In this document: piece after piece, positions 12,290 through 38,762 of the stretch
Numbering within the stretch: the first letter of the stretch is position 1
Layout: the number at the start of each line of letters is the position of its first letter
From: Kayfunavirus PDP351P3
Direction: 5' to 3' (one strand)
Length of the DNA: 39,050 nt
Sequence record: OZ035732.1
Translations under genes and position numbers: made by a program
Notes under the pieces: generated by a model
Told to the model about the DNA's origin: nothing
Seen by the model: only the letters and a program-made list of their open reading frames with translations
Databases searched by the model: none

Positions 12290-12741
12290 TGGCCCAATGG
12301 TCTGCAAAACGGGGGCACTCTGTGGGTGCCTACCGCTCTGGACTTGAAGCCAAGAACCAGCAGTGGCTGGAACAGAACGGCGTCAAAGCGGAGTACGAAA
12401 GCCATTATATCAACTATGTGATTCCGGCTTCCGACCACAAGTACACACCAGATTTTATCCTTCCCAACGGTATCATCGTGGAGACCAAAGGTATATTCGA
12501 TAGTGATGACCGTAAGAAGCACCTTCTGGTACGAGAACAGCATCCAGAGTTAGACATCCGGTTCGTGTTCTCAAGTTCCCGCTCCAAGTTATACAAAGGG
12601 TCTCCGACCACGTATGGCGCATGGTGCGAAAAGAACGGCTATAAGTATGCCGATAAGTTCATCCCGGTTGAGTGGCTCCGAGAGGCGACTGTACGTCTGC
12701 CTTCAGGTATACTCATCCCCAAGAAGAAAGGAGTTAAGTGA
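12289..12741 (+). CDS. endonuclease I, Holliday-junction resolvase (T7 gene 3-like)
   Basis: 150 aa; VGAYRSGLE, YVIPAS.H.YTPDF.LPNGI.VETKG...SDDRKKHLL.REQHPELDIR.VFSSSR.KLYKGSPT.YG matches recalled T7 endo I. Confidence 0.95.
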   Translation: MAQWSAKRGHSVGAYRSGLEAKNQQWLEQNGVKAEYESHYINYVIPASDHKYTPDFILPNGIIVETKGIFDSDDRKKHLLVREQHPELDIRFVFSSSRSKLYKGSPTTYGAWCEKNGYKYADKFIPVEWLREATVRLPSGILIPKKKGVK

Positions 12742-13196
12742 TGACTACCTGTAAAGACCTTGAAGTTGGAACACGTTACAGATTCTCAAAGAACACCCTG
12801 TTGAATAACCCCGGATTCACTGATGCTGTTTTCGAAAAGCGAGAAGACCATAGCGTAATTGTGGAGAAGGGGTGGCATCCTGAGGATTACATCGGTGAGA
12901 CTACCAGCTGGAATGGTCACGAGACCTACAGTGTAGAAGTTGTTGACCAGCCTCAAGTCCTGCCAGCTTCGAGCGTACCACCTGTGACTGTGAAGCGTGA
13001 AGTCCTGACCATCGACAAGATTGGTGTGGGCCAGACGTTCATCGTCCACGGTAAACCGGAGGAAGTGTACGTTAAGATTAGTAACTCACACGTCTTCAAC
13101 CATAAGCGCCTCCAGATGCACACCACGGATGCACAGCGCTTCACCCAGCACCTGAATCTTGTGGTCGTAGAATTGGTGGTGTACAATGGTAAGTAA
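12741..13196 (+). CDS. hypothetical protein (151 aa) between endonuclease I and amidase
   Basis: ORF-track ORF (ATG 12741, AAAGGAG RBS); typical local codon usage; T7 has no gene here; no homolog recognised. Confidence 0.6.
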   Translation: MTTCKDLEVGTRYRFSKNTLLNNPGFTDAVFEKREDHSVIVEKGWHPEDYIGETTSWNGHETYSVEVVDQPQVLPASSVPPVTVKREVLTIDKIGVGQTFIVHGKPEEVYVKISNSHVFNHKRLQMHTTDAQRFTQHLNLVVVELVVYNGK

Positions 13197-13644
13197 GGTA
13201 CAGTTCAACCCACGGTCCCGGACTGACGCTATCTTCGTTCACTGTTCGGCTACCAAGCCAGAGATGGACATCGGGGTAGAGACCATCCGTATGTGGCATA
13301 AGCAACAAGGCTGGCTGGACGTAGGCTACCACTTTATCATCAAGCGCGATGGTACTGTGGAAGAGGGTCGCCCGGTCAATGTCGTAGGGTCACACGTTAA
13401 GGACTGGAACTCACGGTCTGTAGGCGTCTGCCTTGTAGGTGGAATTGATGCTAAGGGAAAGTTTGAAGCTAACTTCACTCCGGCCCAGATGAACTCACTG
13501 CGAAACAAGCTGGCTGACCTGAAGGTCCTGTATCCTCAGGCAGAAATCAAAGCACACCATGACGTAGCGCCAAAGGCGTGTCCAAGTTTCGACTTACAAC
13601 GCTGGCTGTCTACCAACGAACTGGTCACTTCCGACCACTGTTAA
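13186..13644 (+). CDS. N-acetylmuramoyl-L-alanine amidase / T7 lysozyme (gene 3.5-like)
   Basis: 152 aa; VQF..R..TDAIFVHCSATKP, WLDVGYHFIIKRDGTVE.GR, GVCLVGGID.KGKF.ANFTPAQM.SLR, AHH.VAPKACPSFDL.RW, terminal ELVTSD match recalled T7 gp3.5. Confidence 0.95.
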   Translation: MVSKVQFNPRSRTDAIFVHCSATKPEMDIGVETIRMWHKQQGWLDVGYHFIIKRDGTVEEGRPVNVVGSHVKDWNSRSVGVCLVGGIDAKGKFEANFTPAQMNSLRNKLADLKVLYPQAEIKAHHDVAPKACPSFDLQRWLSTNELVTSDHC

Positions 13645-28979: not shown

Positions 28980-29450
28980 ATGTATATTCGCAAGGCTACG
29001 GAACCAGATGTCCACTACTTTCTGTGGCATCTTTCAGCAGATGATGTTAATGAATGCAAAGCAAACTACGGGTCAACCGTGGGTCTCTCTGAGAGACTGC
29101 TTAAGCACCTATCTCCATCATCTGTGGTTTTAACGAATGGTGTAGGTGAAGTGTTTGCCTATGGTGGAAACCAAGGGGATAACGTATGGTTCTTGACTTC
29201 AGGTCTGGTCAACAAGCTGAGACCTAAAGAGAAGCGAGAGTTCATAAAGCGTATCTCTGAGTACAGGGACTTAATGTTAGACCAATACGGGACCATCTGG
29301 AACTACGTGTGGTCAGGCAATAAGTCTCACATTAAATTCTTGAAGTTGCTTGGGGCTAAGTTCCATGATGATTGGACTATCAGCCCGGTAACTGGTGAGC
29401 GTTTTCAATTATTCACTATCTCTAAGGAGGACGTATGTGTGAACCCGTAA
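28980..29450 (+). CDS. internal virion protein A (gp13 position)
   Basis: 156-aa ORF-track ORF with AAGGAGA RBS; assigned by synteny between gp12 and gp14. Confidence 0.55.
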   Translation: MYIRKATEPDVHYFLWHLSADDVNECKANYGSTVGLSERLLKHLSPSSVVLTNGVGEVFAYGGNQGDNVWFLTSGLVNKLRPKEKREFIKRISEYRDLMLDQYGTIWNYVWSGNKSHIKFLKLLGAKFHDDWTISPVTGERFQLFTISKEDVCVNP

Positions 29451-30022
29451 GTATCGGCATGGGTATCATGGCTGTAGCAGGGGCCACTATGTCCGCATCA
29501 CAACAGGCCAAGGCCGAAGGTGCAGCAATTGACGCTCAGAACCGACAGGCTCAGGAAATGGTTAAGCAGATGAACTACTCTGACGCCAACCTGAGGATGC
29601 AGGAGCGAGACCTGAAGGAGCAGCAGCTGGCTGAACTGACAGAGACCACGCTCAACGGTATCCGCAATCAGGGTATGGTCCGAGCTGCGGTGGCTGAGTC
29701 CGGTCTGGAAGGGAACTCTATGGACAGGATTGAACGTCAGGTCGCAGGAGATACAGTCAAGGAGCGAGCAGGGATTACCGAAAGTTACAACCGCGACTAT
29801 GCGGCTATCTTCGGGAACCGTATCGCCAACATTGAGAACACAAAGTCTGCTATCCGTGGTCAAGGTAAAATCATCAAGACCAGCCCACTGGCTCATGCAC
29901 TTAATGTTGCTAACGCCGGGATGCAAGGCTACGCCGCTGGTAAGTCAATCTCTGGAGAGTCCAGCTCTGGTGGTTCTGCACCAATTAGTGCTGCTAAAGG
30001 CACACCTACAGGTCATAGCTAA
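29435..30022 (+). CDS. internal virion protein B (T7 gp14-like)
   Basis: 195 aa; MC start, hydrophobic N-terminus, SMDRIER, YNRDYAAIF resemble recalled T7 gp14 (MCWAAAIPIA..., SMDRIKR, YRRDYQAIF). Confidence 0.8.
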   Translation: MCEPVSIGMGIMAVAGATMSASQQAKAEGAAIDAQNRQAQEMVKQMNYSDANLRMQERDLKEQQLAELTETTLNGIRNQGMVRAAVAESGLEGNSMDRIERQVAGDTVKERAGITESYNRDYAAIFGNRIANIENTKSAIRGQGKIIKTSPLAHALNVANAGMQGYAAGKSISGESSSGGSAPISAAKGTPTGHS

Positions 30023-30033
30023 GAGGAGGACTA

Positions 30034-32316
30034 ATGGCTAGTAATATTGAATCAGCTCTTGCTAATCGGACTATGGGTCGTGGCAGAGCGCCGGGTAAAA
30101 CTATCGCCGTCAACTATCAAGCAGCCAGCGTTCAGGCTCCAACTGGTGACTCAGGTTTGGCTCGGGCGTTAACCAACTTCGTTGAGTCTGGTACTGGATT
30201 ATACAAGCAGTTCAAAGACGAGGAGAAGACACGGGCCGACGAGCGGTCTAACGAGATTATCCGTAAGCTGACACCTCAGCAAAGACGTGAGGCTATCCAG
30301 AACGGCACACTGCTGTATCAGGACGACCCTTACGCTATGGAAGCACTTCGAGTCAAGACTGGCCGCAATGCTGCTTTTGCGGTAGACGACGAGATTAACG
30401 TTAAGATTCAGAACGGTGAGTTCCGTACACGTCAGGACATGGAAGAGTATCGCCACCAGCGACTTCAGGATGCCGCTAAGTCCTATGCTGAAGAGGCGGG
30501 TATTAACCCTACTGACGAGTTCTTCCAGCGTGGATTCAACGATAACATCACGGACAGAAACATCGCTATCTACGGGTCCTTCAATAAGTATTTCAGCAAG
30601 CAGTCTGAAGAGACAGCAATGTTGAACACTCGTATTGAGATGAACTCGTTCCTTAACGATGGGGACCTGATGCGTTCGCCTGAGTCTGGAAAGACCTTCA
30701 TGACCTACCTGCGGGATGGTCTAACAACTGCTGCTATCCCTTCGGACCAGCGAGCACGAGAGGTAATCACCCAGACGGTACGTGACGCAATCCAGAAGTC
30801 AGGAGGCTCAAACTTCCTACAGCAAGTCCGTGGCGAGCGTATCACCCTTAATGGTGTTGACGCTACCATCGAAGAGATTGTAGGACCTGACGTCTTCAAT
30901 GCTGCTATGGTCGAGGCCCAAGGGACTGAGTATAAATTGGTGGCTAAGTATCAGGAAGACTTGGCGTTAGGCGTTCAGTCTGCGATTCTTCAGGATGACC
31001 CAACCATCGGTCTGGCCCAGATTCAGAAACTCAAAGAACAGAACAACCTGCTTCAACCGGGTGAAGAACTCACGCCTCAGCGTCAGATGCTTATTAATGC
31101 CGAAGCCAGCTTGCTTGAAGCGGTCAAGCGTAAGTCTGCTGAACAGGCGAAGGAGAACACTAAGTTAATCCAGACACAGAACAAGCAACTGGTCATTGAC
31201 CAAGTGTATCAGCGACGTCTGGCTGGGGACAACGTGTCCACCAACTATGAGGACCTTCCTGTCTCTGACGCTACAGGTGAGTTCAAGCGTTCAGATATGA
31301 ACAACTACGCGTCTGCCAAGCTGCAGCAGATTGACCAGATGGACATCCCTGAGGCTGCTAAAGACGCTCAGAAGGTGGCATTGTTAAGAGCTGACACTAA
31401 CAACGGTCCGTTCCGTAATGCCTTCCAGACGCTGACTCAGGACGCTGCTGGTGAGTGGCAAGCTGCTGTCATCCGTGGACAGTACGACCCAGACAAGATG
31501 AAACGCTTCGAGTCTCTTCGTCGTGCCTACACTCAGGACCCTTCAAGTTTCGCTGCTCTGTATCCTGACCAAGCCCAGTTGTTCTCTACGTTCGACCAGA
31601 TGGACAAGATGGGTCTGGACCCTCAGACGATGATTGAAGCTGATAAGCAAGCTGCAAGTCAAAGCCGTGAGATGCGCATGGAGTCAGACAAGGCGTGGCA
31701 GGAGTTGAAGAACGACTCCAAGAACACCCAGTTGTCTCGTCTCCCAACGTCTCTGGACTCAAGTGCTCGTAAGGTCTGGGACTCATGGTACTATCGTACA
31801 GGTAACGCTGACGCTGCAACTCAGCAGACTCAACGCTGGCTGAATGAAAATACCGTAACGTTCCAGTCTGAAGGTTCTGACGGTAAGTCCATCGGCATGG
31901 TGTCAAAGCACCAGCTTATGGTCGGGGATAACCCAGAGTCGTGGCAGGTTGGTCGAGACATTATCGACACCGCTCGTAAGCAGCTCATTAAGGCCAACCC
32001 TTGGGTAGTGAACTCTCAGTTGTCCGTTGTTGAACAGAACGGCTCTATCTTCCTCCAAGACGCTACAGGGACTATTCGTATTCGCTACGATAAAGAACTT
32101 GTAGGTAAACTCTACCGCGAACAACAGCAGAAGGCACAAGATGCCGCATACGCTCAGGCAGAACGTGACGCTAACAAGCGAGCGCGTATCGTCGGGACTA
32201 AAGCTGCTGGTGACAAACGTCGAGCTGACCGAGAGGCCAACATCGAGAAGCGCGGAGGGATGTACAATGACGTCTCATTGGAGGGTATCGCAAACGTACT
32301 AATCGGTAAGGAGTAA
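30034..32316 (+). CDS. internal virion protein C (T7 gp15-like)
   Basis: 760 aa; ADERSNEIIRKLTPQQRREA.QNGTLLYQDDPYAMEALRVKTGRNAA, EEYRH.RLQ, DPQ....ADK match recalled T7 gp15. Confidence 0.93.
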   Translation: MASNIESALANRTMGRGRAPGKTIAVNYQAASVQAPTGDSGLARALTNFVESGTGLYKQFKDEEKTRADERSNEIIRKLTPQQRREAIQNGTLLYQDDPYAMEALRVKTGRNAAFAVDDEINVKIQNGEFRTRQDMEEYRHQRLQDAAKSYAEEAGINPTDEFFQRGFNDNITDRNIAIYGSFNKYFSKQSEETAMLNTRIEMNSFLNDGDLMRSPESGKTFMTYLRDGLTTAAIPSDQRAREVITQTVRDAIQKSGGSNFLQQVRGERITLNGVDATIEEIVGPDVFNAAMVEAQGTEYKLVAKYQEDLALGVQSAILQDDPTIGLAQIQKLKEQNNLLQPGEELTPQRQMLINAEASLLEAVKRKSAEQAKENTKLIQTQNKQLVIDQVYQRRLAGDNVSTNYEDLPVSDATGEFKRSDMNNYASAKLQQIDQMDIPEAAKDAQKVALLRADTNNGPFRNAFQTLTQDAAGEWQAAVIRGQYDPDKMKRFESLRRAYTQDPSSFAALYPDQAQLFSTFDQMDKMGLDPQTMIEADKQAASQSREMRMESDKAWQELKNDSKNTQLSRLPTSLDSSARKVWDSWYYRTGNADAATQQTQRWLNENTVTFQSEGSDGKSIGMVSKHQLMVGDNPESWQVGRDIIDTARKQLIKANPWVVNSQLSVVEQNGSIFLQDATGTIRIRYDKELVGKLYREQQQKAQDAAYAQAERDANKRARIVGTKAAGDKRRADREANIEKRGGMYNDVSLEGIANVLIGKE

Positions 32317-32320
32317 CATA

Positions 32321-35300
32321 ATGGCGACTCGTGGTATTCGCAATAACAATCCGGGTAACATCCGGGTAAGTAAGGACCAATGGGAAGGAATGACTGGAGA
32401 TGATGGCGCATTCGTCACCTTCGATAGTCCAGAGTCTGGCGTCCGAGCTTTAGGTAAAAACCTGCTGTCCTACGGTCGCCAAGGTTATGACTCCATCGAG
32501 AAGATTATCAACCGATGGGCACCTCCTAACGAGAACGACACTAAGGCTTATATTGACTCAGTGGTGGCTGCAACTGGTATTCCAGCTACCCAGAGTCTCG
32601 ACCTATCGGACCCTGACACCCTGTCTTCTCTGGCACAAGCTATCAGCTTCCATGAGACAGGCTCACGGTACGACCCTGAAGTCTATCAGAAGGGAGTCGC
32701 ACGAGCACTCAATGGCATTAGCCCAAAGACTCCACCAGTAAGCGCTAACGTATTTGACGCACTCACGGAAGGACTCAAGGCTAAACCTAAAGTAGCTCTG
32801 GGCGAGAACCTTCCGACCGCTGCTGGTCTGAACATTGAGGGTCAATCACCTGAAGCTCCCAACGAATCGTTCGGTGAGATGTTCTATAAGGCTACTGGAG
32901 AGACCATGCAGGAGCGAGAGGACCGCTCTACGTGGTTCGGTTTCGGTGCGGCTACAGAAGCTGACGTGAAGAACTCTATGGTAGGCGTGGCTATCCGAGC
33001 TGGCCAGACTGAGGATTCACTGGATGTCATTGGCGATGTGTTCAACCCAACCCGATGGAACAACCATAAGTGGTCTCGTGAGGAGCTGGACCAGATTCGT
33101 AACGCTGGGGTTTTGCCTCAGTATTACGGAGTCATTACTGGTGGCTCTCCTCAGAACCTTACCGAGCTTATTAACTTGGCGCTTGAGAACCAGAAGTTGG
33201 ACCAAGAGAGGGCCAAGGCTGGGACTGGTGCTCAGTTAGCCGCTGGTGTGATTGGAGCTGGTGTGGACCCTCTGACCTACGTTCCTATCGCTGGACAGGT
33301 AGGTAAGGGTGGGAAGCTAATCAACAAGATGTTCACTGTGGCTGCTCAGTCTGGTGCTCTTGCTGGGGCATCCGAGATTGCTCGAACCTCAGTTGCTGGT
33401 GGGGACGCTCATGTGGCTGAAGCTATCCTTGGTGGTGTTCTCTTCGGTGGCGGTATGACTGCTATCGCTGATGGACTAGGTAGAGCCTTAGGCCGCAACA
33501 CTAATGAGTTTGCTGGTCCAGCTACACGTCTGGAAGCTCGTGAGACTGCTCGTAACGTTGATGGTCAGGACCTATCTCGTCTACCTATTCAGGAAGGTGA
33601 GCAGACCTTTAGTCATCAAGGTGTTAAGTTCGCAGACGTTCCGAACGAGCCGGGTAGTGTACGACTGGAAGATGGTTCAATCCTGATTGGTGAGAACCCT
33701 CTGAACCCTAAGACACGTCAAGTCTTTGACGAAGTGATTGAGCCGGAACGTGCCGCTGCTGGTGTGAACCTTGGTGGACTTACCGAGATTGGCCTGAAGC
33801 TGCTTCGGTCTGAGAACCCTGAGATTCGTGGAGTAGCTGCTGACTTAGTGCGTTCACCGACTGGTATGCAGTCTGGGGCCTCAGGTAAAATCGGGACAAC
33901 TGCGTCAGACGTGTTCGAGAGACTTCGTGCTGTGGACCATCGGTTCTACAACGACCTCGACGATGCTGTTACTGAGGCACTCAAGGACCCTTACTTCCAG
34001 ACAGCATTCTGGCGAGACTCTGGCGCATTCCGTCAAGACATCTATCAGCGTGTGTCTATGGCTATCGAAGATGGTAGTGGGAACCTGAAGGCTGAACTGA
34101 CTCCGGGAGAACTGAAAGTCTATGACCTGCTGAAGAACCAGTTCGACGCCAAGCGTGAGATGATGGAGAATCCAGCTATGTTTGGTCGCCCAGACGCTCA
34201 GTCTATCTTTCCGGGTAGTCGCTTCAAGGGAACCTACGTCCCGCATGTGTATAGCAACCAGATGAAGGAGCTGTACATCAAGGAGCTTGGAAGTCCAGAG
34301 GCGTTGCAGGAGGCCATCAAGAAGTCATGGTTGACCAGCTATGCGTCTCGACCTGAAGTCAAGAAACGCGTGGACGAGGCACTTTTAGAGGCTGACCCTA
34401 CTTTGACTCCAGAGGGACTTGCGGCTGCGGTCGATAAGTACGCCAACGATAGGGCTTACGGTATCTCCCATACAGGGCAGTTCGAACGTTCATCCGTAAT
34501 GGAAGAGAACATCAACGGTCTGGTTGGTCTGGAGAACAATAGCTTCCTTGAGGCTCGTAACCTGTTCGATAGCGATATGTCAATCGTCCTGCCTAACGGT
34601 CAGACCTTCAGTGTCAACAACCTGCGTGAGTGGGACATGGACAAGATTGTCCCGGCCTACAACCGTCGAGTTAATGGCGACATTGCTATCATGGCTGGTA
34701 CAGGAAAAACCACGAAGGACATGAAGGACTTGGTTGAGACCATGATGAACAAGGCTGGCGATGACGGTAAGTTGAAAGGTGAGGTATCTACCTTACGTGA
34801 CACCCTGAAGATTCTCACTGGTCGTGCTCGACGTGATGGTGCTGACGATGCAGCCTTCGCTACCGTGATGCGCACAATGACAGACCTAGCGTTCTTCGCT
34901 AAGAATGCCTACATGGGTGTTCAGAACTTGACGGAGATTGGTGGTATGTTGGCTCGCGGCAACGTTCGTGCGCTGCTACATGGAGTCCCTATGTTCCGTG
35001 ACCTAGCCTTCCGTAACAAGAAGGTCGGGGCCTCGGAGATTAAGGACCTGCATAATGTTATCTTCGGTAAAGAATTGGATGACTCAATCCGTCCGTCTAA
35101 ACAGGATGTTATCGACCGTCTGCGCTCTTACAGTGACCTCAGTCGTGGTACAGCTACAGCTCTGGGGACTGCCAAGTATTACACTGGTGAACTTGCAGTA
35201 CGCTCTCCGTTCACTAAAGTCCTCAACGGTACGACCAACTACCTGTTAGATGCTGGACGTCAAGGCTTCCTGTCTGACATCGTGGAACATAGCCTGACTG

Positions 35301-36208
35301 GTAGTAAGCGTAAGTTCGATGACCGCTGGCTGAAGACAGCTGGTATCTCTGACGAGCAGTGGAAGGGCATTAAGTCCCTAATCCGTGAGTCAGTGACTCG
35401 TGGGCCAGACGGGAAGTACACCATCAAGGATAAGAAGGCGTTCAGTCAGGACCCAAGGGCTATGGACCTGTGGCGCATGGGTGACACCATAGCTGACGAA
35501 ACGTTACTCCGTCCTCATAAGCTGTCAAACATGGACGCCAAGGCTTATGGTCCTCTCGCTAAGACTGTCCTTCAGTTTAAGAACTTCGTCATCAAGTCTA
35601 TCAATGGGAGAACCATGCGCACATTCTATAACGCCACCAAGAACAACCGAGCTATTGATGCTGCGCTGTCCACTGTGATGTCTATGGGCCTTGCTGGTAT
35701 CTACTACATGGCTCAGGCACACCTCAAGGCTTACGCTATGCAGGATGGTCGTGACCGTGAGTACCTCAAGCAAGCTCTGGACCCGACGATGATTGGATAT
35801 GCAGCTCTATCACGTAGTTCACATCTTGGTGGCCCACTTGGGGTAGCTAACATTCTGGGTGGCATCGCTGGGTATGAGGACACTAAGATGCTCCGTTCGT
35901 CTATCCTACCTCGTTCGCCTACAGAGAAGCCTGAACGTGCCATCGCGTATGGTGCAGCTACAAGTGACCCTGTGATGAATGTTGTTGGTAACTTCTTGGA
36001 GCAGGTTCCAGCTTTCGGATATGCTGCTAACGTTGGGGCTACGGCTTACAACTTGGCTGGCTACCTCAAGGCTGATACTCGTGTCAACGAGCGTGACTAC
36101 ATGACCGGGATGTATAATACGTTCCGTGAACTGGTTCCGAACGACCCAATTACCCAGAAGCTGTTGCTTGGAACGTTTGAGGAGCAAGGTATCCACATCA
36201 AGGACTAA
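32321..36208 (+). CDS. internal virion protein D (T7 gp16-like core) with non-T7 N-terminal domain
   Basis: 1295 aa; from about residue 200 colinear with recalled T7 gp16 (TRWN.H.W..EELD.IR, GAGVDPL.YVP, LRSPTGMQSGASGK, GTYVPHVY, FLEARNLFDSD, GDIAIM, GKTTK, ILTGRARR, RSPFTK.LNGTTNYLLDA, PRAMDLWR, NNRAIDAALS, LVPNDP.TQ.L); first about 160 aa (MATRGIRNNNPGNIR...) do not resemble the T7 N-terminal SLT domain. Confidence 0.93.
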   Translation: MATRGIRNNNPGNIRVSKDQWEGMTGDDGAFVTFDSPESGVRALGKNLLSYGRQGYDSIEKIINRWAPPNENDTKAYIDSVVAATGIPATQSLDLSDPDTLSSLAQAISFHETGSRYDPEVYQKGVARALNGISPKTPPVSANVFDALTEGLKAKPKVALGENLPTAAGLNIEGQSPEAPNESFGEMFYKATGETMQEREDRSTWFGFGAATEADVKNSMVGVAIRAGQTEDSLDVIGDVFNPTRWNNHKWSREELDQIRNAGVLPQYYGVITGGSPQNLTELINLALENQKLDQERAKAGTGAQLAAGVIGAGVDPLTYVPIAGQVGKGGKLINKMFTVAAQSGALAGASEIARTSVAGGDAHVAEAILGGVLFGGGMTAIADGLGRALGRNTNEFAGPATRLEARETARNVDGQDLSRLPIQEGEQTFSHQGVKFADVPNEPGSVRLEDGSILIGENPLNPKTRQVFDEVIEPERAAAGVNLGGLTEIGLKLLRSENPEIRGVAADLVRSPTGMQSGASGKIGTTASDVFERLRAVDHRFYNDLDDAVTEALKDPYFQTAFWRDSGAFRQDIYQRVSMAIEDGSGNLKAELTPGELKVYDLLKNQFDAKREMMENPAMFGRPDAQSIFPGSRFKGTYVPHVYSNQMKELYIKELGSPEALQEAIKKSWLTSYASRPEVKKRVDEALLEADPTLTPEGLAAAVDKYANDRAYGISHTGQFERSSVMEENINGLVGLENNSFLEARNLFDSDMSIVLPNGQTFSVNNLREWDMDKIVPAYNRRVNGDIAIMAGTGKTTKDMKDLVETMMNKAGDDGKLKGEVSTLRDTLKILTGRARRDGADDAAFATVMRTMTDLAFFAKNAYMGVQNLTEIGGMLARGNVRALLHGVPMFRDLAFRNKKVGASEIKDLHNVIFGKELDDSIRPSKQDVIDRLRSYSDLSRGTATALGTAKYYTGELAVRSPFTKVLNGTTNYLLDAGRQGFLSDIVEHSLTGSKRKFDDRWLKTAGISDEQWKGIKSLIRESVTRGPDGKYTIKDKKAFSQDPRAMDLWRMGDTIADETLLRPHKLSNMDAKAYGPLAKTVLQFKNFVIKSINGRTMRTFYNATKNNRAIDAALSTVMSMGLAGIYYMAQAHLKAYAMQDGRDREYLKQALDPTMIGYAALSRSSHLGGPLGVANILGGIAGYEDTKMLRSSILPRSPTEKPERAIAYGAATSDPVMNVVGNFLEQVPAFGYAANVGATAYNLAGYLKADTRVNERDYMTGMYNTFRELVPNDPITQKLLLGTFEEQGIHIKD

Positions 36209-36272: not shown

Positions 36273-38762
36273 ATGTCCACGATTACACAATTCCCTTCAG
36301 GAAACACTCAGTACAGGATTGAGTTCGACTACCTATCCAGAACGTTTGTTGTTGTTACTCTGGTGAATAGCTCTAACCTTACCCTGAACCGTGTACTGGA
36401 AGTTGGTCGAGATTACCGATTCCTTAATCCAACGATGATTGAGATGTTGGTTGACCAATCAGGTTTCGACATCGTTCGTATTCACCGTCAGACTGGAACT
36501 GACTTAGTGGTAGACTTCAGGAATGGCTCAGTGTTGACAGCTAGTGACCTGACTAATGCAGAGCTTCAGGCTATCCATATTGCAGAAGAAGGTCGAGACC
36601 AAACGGTTGACTTAGCGAAGGAATATGCCGATGCTGCTAGTAGCTCTGCTGGCAACGCTAAGGATAGCGAGGACGAAGCACGCCGAATCGCTGATAGTAT
36701 CAAGACATCTGGTCAAATTGGCTATATTACCCGCCGCTCCTTCGAGAAAGGCTTCAACGTTACAACATGGAACGAGGTCCTGCTATGGGAAGAGGATGGC
36801 GAATATTACCGTTGGGACGGTGACTTTCCTAAAACCGTACCTGCTGGCTCAACTCCTGAAACTTCAGGTGGAGTTGGTTTAGGTGCATGGGTTAGCGTTG
36901 GTGATGCGTCACTTAGAGGGCAAATATCTTCTAAATACGGATTATCAATTATTGGTGGGTTTGAATCAGTAGATGATATGAGATCCTATTCATCAGTTGC
37001 AAGTTTGCCAGACGGCACAAGGGCTTTCTTGTTTAGTTTTTATGCCGGGAAAAGCATTGGTGGAGGTATATTTCAATGGCACAGTAACGCAACAACTGAT
37101 GATGATGGCTTCTCTGTTATTAAACCATCAGCTGTTTCAGGAGCAGGTCGATGGATTAACATTAAACGTGGCAGACTAACCCCGGAAGAATGTGGGTGCG
37201 TACCTAATGACCCATCATTTGACAACGGCGTACCGCTTAATAGATGGGCGTCACAGCAGCATTGTATAGGTTCCGTTGGCGTCTTTTATAAAACAACTGC
37301 TTTAATTCCGTCACCGCCAGCGTACCCACAGTATATAGACGCTAAAGGCATGAGGCTGATGACTACTGTGGCTGACGTAAATGGGGTGGAACTCTCCTCT
37401 GATATGTCTCGACGTATCAATATTGAGGGTCTTGAGTCGTTCGGTGACCCGTCATTAACAGTAACGAATCGCAATAAAGCCAACGGCTTCTATATCGCTG
37501 GCTGTAGGGAAGTAGTCCTAAAAAACATTCGCTGTGAGGGATGGAAAAACGCTGGTGTCTGGTGGTTTGAAGTCAACAATATGACTATCGACGGATTTAT
37601 TGGATGGAGAAATGATTGGGATGGTTCCACACTATTCTCCTCTGGTGGGGATTTAGTTGAATGGACTTCGAGCGACGGGTTGGCGAAATCCTGCAGTATA
37701 ACTAATTTCGCGTGTTTTTCAGATGGCAGCCAAAGCATATCCATAAACTCATTATCTTTTGGGCGAAATGTACTAATCAGTAACGGACGCTGTTTCACGT
37801 ATGACGCTACAGATTTTACACCAAAAACTCGGACTAACATAAAAGCACGACATGGAATCACGATAGGTTACAACTCCAACCAGACGTATGGTGGTGGTGT
37901 TAAAGTTAGTAACGTCATTATCAGAGATAAGGGGTGGACTGGCATTTGCCGCTCTGGTGGTTTAGATGGCGCTGTACGATATCAACCAGCTACCATTTCT
38001 AACGTTTCAGTGTACGATTGCGGTTTTGGTATAAACCAAGACAACATTGGTGCTGGTATTCTGTTTGGTGACGTAGTTGACGGAGACATGATCAACAACT
38101 GTTATGTGGAAGGTTTCGCCAACGCTAATAACGGTGCGTACAAAATTCAGGATTCTGTAGGTACAGGGAAGCTGACAATAGCTAACTGTGTTGATAAAGG
38201 TTCTGCTGGATACGGTGTACACATAGCGACAGAATCGGTTAACGTAATGGTTATCGGCCACAGAAGCATAGAACCAACCGGTGCAGGTATTTTCCTTGAG
38301 GCAAAAGGCGGCGCAACACTATTCCGGTCGCATACTGTTGACGGATGTCGTATTGAGCGTGTGACGGACGGTTACGGAATATTTTTGTCTAACGGCGTAA
38401 TTAGTGCGAATATCAAAAACAATGAAATCCGTGGTACTTCTACGAACTCCACAACAAACTGTGCTATTCGTGTAAACCAAAATGGGCAAAACATAAATAT
38501 CAGAGGAAATCAGATTTACGGTTTTGCATACGGGTTGTGGTACAACACCTATGTGAACACCACAACGGTATTCCCGTGGGGTAACAACCAATTCTTCGGC
38601 TGCATTAACGCACACCGTTTCGCAAGGACGACAGGAACCAGTGTTGCTAAGGTAGAACCTAATTATTACGACGGCGCTACTACAAATCAATTCTCTAATG
38701 GTGGCGTAGGAACGAGTAACGGAACGGAAGAATTTAGAGTTAATGGCACTCCCGTGACCTAA
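36273..38762 (+). CDS. tailspike: T7 gp17-like N-terminal tail-attachment domain fused to a parallel beta-helix (putative polysaccharide depolymerase) module
   Basis: 829 aa; residues 1-150 resemble recalled T7 gp17 N-terminus (EFDYLSR.FVVVTL, DYRF, LVDF.NGS.L.A.DL..A.LQ..H.AEE.RD); remainder has beta-helix-type repeats (NNCYVEGF, NNEIRGTS, IRGNQIYG) and is AT-richer than the rest of the genome. Confidence 0.9.
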   Translation: MSTITQFPSGNTQYRIEFDYLSRTFVVVTLVNSSNLTLNRVLEVGRDYRFLNPTMIEMLVDQSGFDIVRIHRQTGTDLVVDFRNGSVLTASDLTNAELQAIHIAEEGRDQTVDLAKEYADAASSSAGNAKDSEDEARRIADSIKTSGQIGYITRRSFEKGFNVTTWNEVLLWEEDGEYYRWDGDFPKTVPAGSTPETSGGVGLGAWVSVGDASLRGQISSKYGLSIIGGFESVDDMRSYSSVASLPDGTRAFLFSFYAGKSIGGGIFQWHSNATTDDDGFSVIKPSAVSGAGRWINIKRGRLTPEECGCVPNDPSFDNGVPLNRWASQQHCIGSVGVFYKTTALIPSPPAYPQYIDAKGMRLMTTVADVNGVELSSDMSRRINIEGLESFGDPSLTVTNRNKANGFYIAGCREVVLKNIRCEGWKNAGVWWFEVNNMTIDGFIGWRNDWDGSTLFSSGGDLVEWTSSDGLAKSCSITNFACFSDGSQSISINSLSFGRNVLISNGRCFTYDATDFTPKTRTNIKARHGITIGYNSNQTYGGGVKVSNVIIRDKGWTGICRSGGLDGAVRYQPATISNVSVYDCGFGINQDNIGAGILFGDVVDGDMINNCYVEGFANANNGAYKIQDSVGTGKLTIANCVDKGSAGYGVHIATESVNVMVIGHRSIEPTGAGIFLEAKGGATLFRSHTVDGCRIERVTDGYGIFLSNGVISANIKNNEIRGTSTNSTTNCAIRVNQNGQNINIRGNQIYGFAYGLWYNTYVNTTTVFPWGNNQFFGCINAHRFARTTGTSVAKVEPNYYDGATTNQFSNGGVGTSNGTEEFRVNGTPVT

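What the first reader, a model, noticed from the sequence alone, without database searches (positions are those of the whole stretch)
32321..32920. gp16 internal virion protein carries a non-T7 N-terminal domain
From about residue 200 the protein is colinear with T7 gp16. The first about 160 residues (MATRGIRNNNPGNIRVSKDQWEGMTGDDGAFVTFDSPESGVRALGKNLLSYGRQGYDSIEKIINRWAPPNEN...) do not resemble the T7 gp16 N-terminal lytic transglycosylase domain as I recall it. In T7 that domain is ejected into the cell wall to digest peptidoglycan, so this may be an alternative cell-wall-active module.
Basis: partly seen in the sequence, partly recalled or inferred. Interest (0 to 1): 0.5.

Follow-up and report, generated by a model that had tools for sequence, protein, structure and literature searches.

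The report
Enc34-type lysin domain on gp16
This K1F-like relative of phage T7 has replaced the cell-wall-cutting head of its ejected virion protein gp16 with an unrelated-looking but known wall-degrading domain (the Enc34 endolysin type), a real but fairly ordinary module swap shared by the whole phage genus.

Summary
The window is a Kayfunavirus (K1F-like T7 relative). Its gp16 (32321-36208, 1295 aa) is colinear with T7 gp16 only from residue 125 (T7 residue 152). Residues 1-124 give no SLT or other Pfam hit, whereas the T7 N-terminus hits SLT at E=7e-31.

The replaced domain is not an orphan. It belongs to the Enc34-endolysin / CDD PHA02564 family:
- Sequence match to PDB 7q47 at E=5e-15.
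- The three residues named as catalytically important in Enc34 (Trp79, Tyr95, Glu131) are conserved here as W66, Y77 and E112.
- dN/dS is 0.06-0.14 among Kayfunaviruses.

Two family members (Enc34 ORF39 and BSPM4 M4Lys) degrade peptidoglycan in vitro, with N-acetylglucosaminidase activity proposed.

About 220 sequenced phages share this gp16, and a near-identical protein is in the PDB (9vvp). The same module heads gp16 in Minipunavirus and in a Burkholderia podophage, and it occurs in many other virion proteins. I rate it a new member of a known kind, of modest interest.

The parts
32307..32313 (+). Ribosome-binding site TAAGGAG of gene 16, inside the last codons of gp15 (gp15 stop TAA at 32314-32316)
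   Evidence: Sequence read; ORF list.
32321..32692 (+). gp16 residues 1-124: Enc34-type (CDD PHA02564) lysozyme-like muralytic domain that replaces the T7 SLT domain
32330..32365 (+). Residues 4-15, RGIRNNNPGNIR: the family's N-terminal signature motif (N8, N10, N13, I14, R15 invariant in 50 homologs)
   Evidence: Alignment A1.
32516..32518 (+). Codon W66 (RWAPP), equivalent to Enc34 Trp79
   Evidence: HMMER alignment, where chain numbering is +1 relative to the paper (PMC8943055). Conserved in >=90% of A1. Tyr in Minipunavirus.
32549..32551 (+). Codon Y77, equivalent to Enc34 Tyr95
   Evidence: Invariant in A1 and A2.
32654..32656 (+). Codon E112 (FHETG), equivalent to the proposed catalytic Glu131 of Enc34
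   Evidence: Invariant in A1 and A2. Residue identity checked.
32693..32920 (+). gp16 residues 125-200: linker homologous to T7 gp16 152-222, the 'molecular tape' that binds gp15 in the periplasmic tunnel
   Evidence: BLASTP 31% identity. phmmer alignment. Role of T7 residues 157-228 taken from PMC8954989.
32921..36208 (+). gp16 body, residues 201-1295 plus stop: T7-type internal virion protein D / ejectosome inner-membrane and cytoplasmic part
   Evidence: 56% identity to T7 gp16. phrog_342 over full length. 9vvp_L is near-identical.
28980..32316 (+). Upstream partners gp13, gp14 and gp15 (internal virion proteins A, B, C), in the same order as in T7
   Evidence: phrog_308, phrog_805 and phrog_1339. 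T7 gene order in L001.
13186..13644 (+). Separate T7-type amidase (gp3.5 homolog), so the gp16 domain is not the phage's only lysin
   Evidence: phrog_822 amidase E=3e-80.

Best explanation
Gene 16 of this Kayfunavirus encodes the T7-type ejection protein gp16, but the N-terminal SLT lytic-transglycosylase domain (T7 residues 1-151) has been exchanged, exactly at the domain/linker boundary, for a 124-residue Enc34-type (PHA02564) lysozyme-like domain. By analogy with T7, gp16 is packed in the capsid core and expelled through the tail at infection. Its N-terminal domain sits in the periplasm on the outside of the gp15 tunnel. There it locally cleaves peptidoglycan, using E112 as the general acid with W66 and Y77 positioning the glycan, so that the trans-envelope channel can form. 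The bond cut is probably the GlcNAc-MurNAc glycosidic bond (N-acetylglucosaminidase, hydrolytic) rather than the MurNAc-GlcNAc bond with 1,6-anhydro formation that T7 cuts. Shown here: the domain's identity, fold, conserved catalytic residues, purifying selection, and T7-type context. Inferred: enzymatic activity of this protein, its bond specificity, and its role at entry.
Against: No assay exists for this protein or for any gp16 of this type in the literature I could search. The bond specificity of the family is unsettled: M4Lys data also suggested endopeptidase activity, and Enc34 specificity was not measured. No substrate complex exists. I could not see whether residues 1-124 are ordered in 9vvp. 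Even in T7 the enzymatic domain is needed only under some conditions (PMC8954989), and Vibrio phage ICP3-type gp16 has no such domain at all, so the contribution to infection may be small.
Confidence: 0.8

Rival explanations
1. The domain keeps the Enc34 fold but is catalytically silent and serves only as a structural 'wing' or plug of the gp15-gp16 periplasmic tunnel or of the capsid core.
For: In T7 the N-domain forms the wings of the tunnel and its catalysis is conditionally dispensable. ICP3-like phages lack any N-domain. No activity data exist for this protein.
Against: The proposed catalytic Glu and the Trp/Tyr pair, plus the RGIRNNNPGNIR motif, are conserved exactly as in stand-alone enzymes of the family. 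A purely structural role would not require them. dN/dS is as low as in the body.
Confidence: 0.08
2. It is simply a very diverged SLT/GH23 domain, so nothing was swapped and the reader's recall of T7 was at fault.
For: The Enc34 authors argue for a remote common origin of this fold with GH23/GH73, with the catalytic Glu in the same spatial position.
Confidence: 0.02
3. The domain acts at the end of infection as a (second) endolysin for lysis rather than at entry.
For: Characterised family members (Enc34 ORF39, M4Lys, D3112-like orf21, Seuratvirus endolysins) are lysis enzymes.
Against: It is fused to the packaged ejection protein in the T7 position. The phage has its own T7-type amidase. The fusion has no signal sequence or transmembrane helix next to the domain. 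The protein is in virions.
Confidence: 0.05

Closest known systems
Enc34 ORF39 endolysin catalytic domain (PDB 7Q47; CDD PHA02564 'V virion protein'), and Salmonella phage BSPM4 M4Lys
   Different: Those are about 25-kDa lysis proteins with a C-terminal transmembrane domain, made late to lyse the cell. Here the domain is the N-terminal head of a 141-kDa packaged ejection protein. The model shows a short beta-hairpin (residues 24-34) where Enc34 has a long loop.
T7 gp16 (internal virion protein D, 'peptidoglycan transglycosylase gp16'; PDB 7EYB, 7K5C)
   Same: Same gene position. Colinear from residue 125 to the end at 56% identity, including the gp15-binding tape and the membrane/cytoplasmic body. 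Presumably the same role of an N-terminal wall-cutting domain.
   Different: The N-terminal catalytic module is SLT/GH23 in T7 (E37) and Enc34-type here (E112). The likely chemistry differs: lytic transglycosylase versus hydrolytic glycosidase acting on the other glycosidic bond.
Other virion-associated lysins built by module fusion (SP6 gp36 / K1-5 gp38 lysozyme-type internal proteins, phiKMV gp36, NO16 GP11, PM2 P5-like proteins)
   Same: The same principle: a wall-degrading module is attached to, or packaged with, ejected virion proteins (PMC5380687). NO16 GP11 and phiV10 p18 carry this very module.
   Different: The carrier proteins differ, and so does the position of the module (N-terminal here, internal or C-terminal elsewhere).

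Membership tests
Enc34-type endolysin catalytic domain (CDD PHA02564) | Significant sequence similarity to a structurally or biochemically characterised member | tested here: met
   phmmer versus 7q47_A: E=5e-15, residues 3-122. tblastn also reaches BSPM4 M4Lys and chivirus/Seuratvirus endolysins.
Enc34-type endolysin catalytic domain (CDD PHA02564) | All-helical permuted lysozyme alpha-lobe fold | tested here: met
Enc34-type endolysin catalytic domain (CDD PHA02564) | Catalytic signature Glu131 / Trp79 / Tyr95 (Enc34 numbering) | tested here: met
   E112, W66 and Y77 align to them. E112 and Y77 are invariant and W66 is >=90% conserved in 50 homologs.
Enc34-type endolysin catalytic domain (CDD PHA02564) | Peptidoglycan-degrading activity | not testable with these tools
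   Shown for Enc34 ORF39deltaC and M4LysdeltaTMD only (PMC8943055, PMC7143992).
SLT / GH23 lytic transglycosylase (Pfam PF01464) | Profile match to the SLT domain | tested here: not met
   No Pfam hit at E<=1. Controls hit SLT: T7 at 7.4e-31, Bas104 at 9e-32, PPpW-4 at 4e-19.
SLT / GH23 lytic transglycosylase (Pfam PF01464) | GH23 fold with the catalytic Glu at the end of the first core helix (T7 E37) | tested here: not met
T7-type gp16 ejection protein (internal virion protein D, phrog_342) | Full-length colinear homology of the body, including the gp15-binding linker | tested here: met
   Query 125-1294 aligns with T7 152-1314, 1307 bits. phrog_342 E=0.
T7-type gp16 ejection protein (internal virion protein D, phrog_342) | Gene order gp13-gp14-gp15-gp16-gp17 in a T7-like genome | tested here: met
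   The window is 95-97% identical to Kayfunavirus genomes.
T7-type gp16 ejection protein (internal virion protein D, phrog_342) | Packaged in the virion core | tested here: inconclusive
   Not testable on this sequence itself. The near-identical 'Gp29' occurs as 4 chains in PDB 9vvp. A gp16 of this kind (141 kDa, 99% identical to Cronobacter phage Dev2 gp16) was detected by virion mass spectrometry in phages SH3 and SH4.
T7-type gp16 ejection protein (internal virion protein D, phrog_342) | N-terminal lytic transglycosylase (as in the name 'peptidoglycan transglycosylase gp16') | tested here: not met
   See the SLT rows. The names 'peptidoglycan lytic exotransglycosylase' or 'transglycosylase' given to this protein in many GenBank records are not supported.

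The most novel reading that the evidence does not exclude
The N-terminus of gp16 is a recurrent exchange site where podophages swap the chemistry of their entry lysin (lytic transglycosylase, Enc34-type hydrolase, or none) to suit the host wall. The Enc34-type head, which does not need the free MurNAc C6-OH, would then be an adaptation to peptidoglycan modifications or inhibitors that block lytic transglycosylases. One example is O-acetylated peptidoglycan in the Morganella and Providencia hosts of Minipunavirus. The evidence does not exclude this. In the gp16-body tree, carriers of the Enc34-type head are not monophyletic (Minipunavirus groups with T7 at 96.5% bootstrap). Yet their N-domains are each other's nearest phage relatives. 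Mosaic dS values also mark the boundary as a recombination point.
Probability: 0.15. Interest if true: 0.55.

Novelty: new member of a known kind. Interest (0 to 1): 0.3.

Why it matters
There are three practical points.
1. It corrects a common annotation error. More than 200 Kayfunavirus genomes, many of them candidate therapeutic phages for E. coli K1, Salmonella Typhi, Enterobacter and Citrobacter, carry a gp16 labelled 'lytic (exo)transglycosylase' or listed as having no recognisable domain. The head is in fact an Enc34-type enzyme.
2. It gives a natural, isogenic-like comparison (T7 versus K1F-type gp16) for asking what wall chemistry the ejectosome really needs.
3. This domain family is very large (18,374 clusters at 50% identity) and recurs in ejected or virion proteins, yet it has no Pfam model, so it goes unseen in routine annotation.

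None of this changes the general picture of how T7-like phages enter cells.

Tried and rejected
- Pfam and NCBIfam scans of the whole protein and of the N-terminus gave nothing. This is informative only together with the T7 control.
- I looked for prior descriptions. The K1F genome paper (PMC1317022) is not held.
- No paper was found for PDB 9vvp.
- No paper in the library contains both 'Enc34' and 'internal virion'.
- A UPEC endolysin survey lists the nearest relatives' gp16 with no domain.
- The JG068 paper turned out to concern an SLT-type protein and is irrelevant.
- Enterobacter phage 04_vB_Eclo_IJM (L006) was dropped from the dN/dS analysis because its gp16 is fragmented by frameshifts.
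- One tblastn query was given in the wrong frame and failed. It was replaced by a small tree built from loci already fetched.
- GC content of the N-domain coding region (0.52) is the same as its neighbours (0.50-0.55), so there is no compositional sign of recent import.
- tblastn hits that start at residue 16-21 are probably caused by low-complexity masking of the RNNNPGN run, not by a missing motif: PRF-SP4, one of the phages whose hit started at residue 17, keeps the motif.
- I could not test the idea that the swap tracks host peptidoglycan O-acetylation.

Full report
**What is there.** The window is a T7-like genome of the genus Kayfunavirus (K1F-like). Bases 32321-33500 are 95-97% identical to Escherichia phages SHAK9454, SHAK7854, YZ1 and LM33_P1, and 207 phage records cover at least 80% of that stretch. 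A TAAGGAG ribosome-binding site lies 7 nt upstream, inside the end of gp15. The neighbours are gp13, gp14 and gp15 (phrog_308, 805, 1339) upstream and a tailspike gp17 downstream. A T7-type amidase lies at 13186-13644. The gene order is that of T7.

**Check of the observation.**
- Against the PDB, the protein matches T7 gp16 (7eyb_I) only over residues 125-1294, which align with T7 152-1314.
- BLASTP of the two N-termini aligns only 125-198 with T7 152-220, at 31% identity. Nothing upstream aligns.
- In a three-way alignment, identity to T7 is at noise level up to about residue 120 and reaches roughly 45-60% per 50-residue window from about residue 190. The body is 56% identical overall.
- Pfam and NCBIfam find nothing in the whole protein or in residues 1-200, even at E<=1.
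- The control works: T7 gp16 residues 15-127 hit PF01464 (SLT) at E=7.4e-31. The gp16 N-termini of phages Bas104 and PPpW-4 hit SLT at 9e-32 and 4e-19.

The one correction is that the foreign part is residues 1-124. Residues 125-200 already correspond to the T7 linker 152-222. [quoted passage not shown] The exchange is thus a clean swap at a domain boundary.

**What the N-terminal domain is.**
- I aligned the first 160 residues with 49 homologs (A1) and predicted the structure. Mean pLDDT is 90.1, and the model has five core helices plus a short hairpin.
- Foldseek against the PDB returns only 7q47 at E<=1e-3 (E=2.5e-9, TM 0.70, probability 1.00).

The Enc34 paper (PMC8943055) places that domain in CDD family PHA02564. 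It shows that the domain lyses outer-membrane-permeabilised E. coli, P. aeruginosa and Hafnia. [quoted passage not shown] In the HMMER alignment, where chain numbering is offset by +1, these three residues align with E112, W66 and Y77 of the window protein. E112 and Y77 are invariant and W66 is at least 90% conserved among 50 homologs. So is the N-terminal RGIRNNNPGNIR motif.

The related M4Lys of Salmonella phage BSPM4 degrades purified peptidoglycan. Its products indicated N-acetylglucosaminidase activity, and possibly endopeptidase activity as well (PMC7143992). The Enc34 authors favour a GH73-like N-acetylglucosaminidase mechanism for the whole family.

**Is the domain maintained?** I compared the window with Kayfunaviruses GA2A and PRF-SP4. 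Codons 1-124 have dN/dS of 0.06-0.14 at dS of about 1.0, similar to the body at 0.055-0.11. GC content of the region (0.52) matches its surroundings. The domain is therefore an old, constrained part of the gene, not a recent or decaying insertion.

**How it most likely works.** This is inference by analogy with T7, from PMC8954989 and the Moak & Molineux work cited there. gp16 is packed in the capsid core; PDB 9vvp holds 4 chains of a near-identical 'Gp29'. It is ejected through the tail. Its N-terminal domain stays in the periplasm on the gp15 tunnel, while the body inserts into the inner membrane. The Enc34-type head would cut the glycan strands locally with E112 as the catalytic acid. It would do so as a hydrolase, and probably on the GlcNAc-MurNAc bond, unlike the T7 lytic transglycosylase. 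The steps shown here are domain identity, fold, conserved catalytic residues, selection and context. Activity, bond specificity and timing are inferred. Rival readings are scored low for the reasons given in the rivals section: an inert structural wing, a very diverged SLT, or a late-acting endolysin.

**Distribution.**
- tblastn of residues 1-125 finds 686 phage records. About 223 of them are at >=60% identity.
- That number matches the 221 records whose gp16 body is >=80% identical to the window, so the trait is genus-wide.
- The SLT-type head is found in 1139 records.
- The same Enc34-type head sits at the N-terminus of gp16 in Minipunavirus (Morganella and Providencia phages). It also heads the large internal virion protein of Burkholderia phage AMP1, subfamily Okabevirinae.
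- ICP3-like Vibrio phages have a gp16 with no enzymatic head at all.
- In a small neighbour-joining tree of the gp16 body (858 gap-free columns), Minipunavirus groups with T7 and Bas104 in 96.5% of 200 bootstraps, and with Kayfunavirus in 1.5%.
- Yet the Minipunavirus N-domain's nearest phage relatives are the Kayfunavirus N-domains, at about 48% identity. This implies at least two exchanges at this junction, with the caveat of few taxa and a distance method.
- Within Kayfunavirus the boundary is also mosaic. Between the window and GA2A, the N-domain has dS 1.03, the linker 0.18 and the body 0.61. GA2A has an endonuclease gene wedged just upstream of gene 16.

**The wider family.**
- A profile search of 1.84 billion cluster representatives finds 18,374 proteins at E<=1e-3 and 13,031 at E<=1e-10.
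- Most are stand-alone proteins of 130-230 aa, some named 'structural protein' by NCBI after phage PM2 P5.
- Others carry the module inside large virion proteins: epsilon15-like p18, a tape measure protein, PHROGs 873, 992, 2276 and 7182, and a 1259-aa protein with a crAss cargo domain.
- A 1421-aa metagenomic protein combines this head with a remote gp16-like body.
- The module is also in the virion of the tailless vibriophage NO16 (PMC13552765).
- None of these has a Pfam domain covering it.

**Comparison with what is known, and novelty.** The domain family is known, has a crystal structure, and has two biochemically tested members. The carrier protein is the well-studied T7 gp16. A near-identical protein is already in the PDB. 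[quoted passage not shown] Many GenBank records call it a lytic (exo)transglycosylase, which the sequence does not support. A 2025 survey lists the closest relatives' gp16 with no detectable domain (PMC12031403). No paper in the searchable library links Enc34 with internal virion proteins. I could not read the K1F genome paper, which may mention the missing transglycosylase motif. I therefore file this as a new member of a known kind. It is a real, well-supported module swap of modest interest. Its main value is in correcting annotation and in offering a natural T7/K1F contrast for studying what the ejectosome's wall-cutting head must do.

Noticed in passing
window 32321-32920; L005 3770-4219 and 4201-8088: The 5' end of gene 16 is mosaic within Kayfunavirus. 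Between the window and GA2A, the N-domain is 83.9% identical (dS 1.03), the adjacent linker 98.7% (dS 0.18) and the body 94.8% (dS 0.61). GA2A has an 'endonuclease' gene inserted between gp15 and gp16 that overlaps the gp16 start, a possible driver of local gene conversion.
   Followed up: partly
L009 1339-4137 (Vibrio phage JSF25, Chatterjeevirus ICP3): This gp16 homolog (1127 aa) begins only about 54 residues before the conserved body and has no Pfam-detectable N-terminal enzyme. It represents a third, head-less state of gp16 in Studiervirinae.
   Followed up: partly
L002 4456-8385 (Morganella phage Lilpapawes) versus window 32321-36208 and L001 4096-8052: The phylogenies are incongruent. 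The Minipunavirus gp16 body groups with the SLT-type T7 and Bas104 (96.5% bootstrap), but its N-domain is Enc34-type and closest to Kayfunavirus. W66 is replaced by Tyr and the PPNEND loop differs, while the catalytic Glu is kept.
   Followed up: partly
protein family of window 32321-32692 (P0121-P0264): The Enc34-type domain family is very large: 18,374 clusters at 50% identity with E<=1e-3. It has no Pfam or NCBIfam model. Architectures include four matched stretches of the domain in one 762-aa protein (P0121), two in a crAss cargo-domain protein (P0122, PF25725), and an N-terminal copy on a remote gp16-like 1421-aa protein (P0206).
   Followed up: partly
GenBank records matched (e.g. OQ860962-OQ860986, OQ703102, PV540240): Many Kayfunavirus gp16 genes are annotated 'peptidoglycan lytic exotransglycosylase' or 'peptidoglycan transglycosylase', apparently by transfer from T7. 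The sequence has no SLT domain.
   Followed up: yes
window 36273-38762: The gp17 tailspike (829 aa) matches tail fibre/spike families only over its N-terminal ~315 residues, with the T7-gp17-like adaptor at residues 1-226. The C-terminal ~500 residues, presumably the receptor-binding or depolymerase part, were not characterised.
   Followed up: no
window 12738-13196: A 152-aa ORF with a GTG start lies between the gp3-like endonuclease and the amidase. It matches PHROGs of unknown function (phrog_16385, phrog_15211) only over its C-terminal half, so the true start may be further downstream.
   Followed up: no
L006 (Enterobacter phage 04_vB_Eclo_IJM, OP272493.1): The internal virion protein genes of this record are broken into many short CDSs. 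This looks like a frameshift-rich assembly rather than biology.
   Followed up: no
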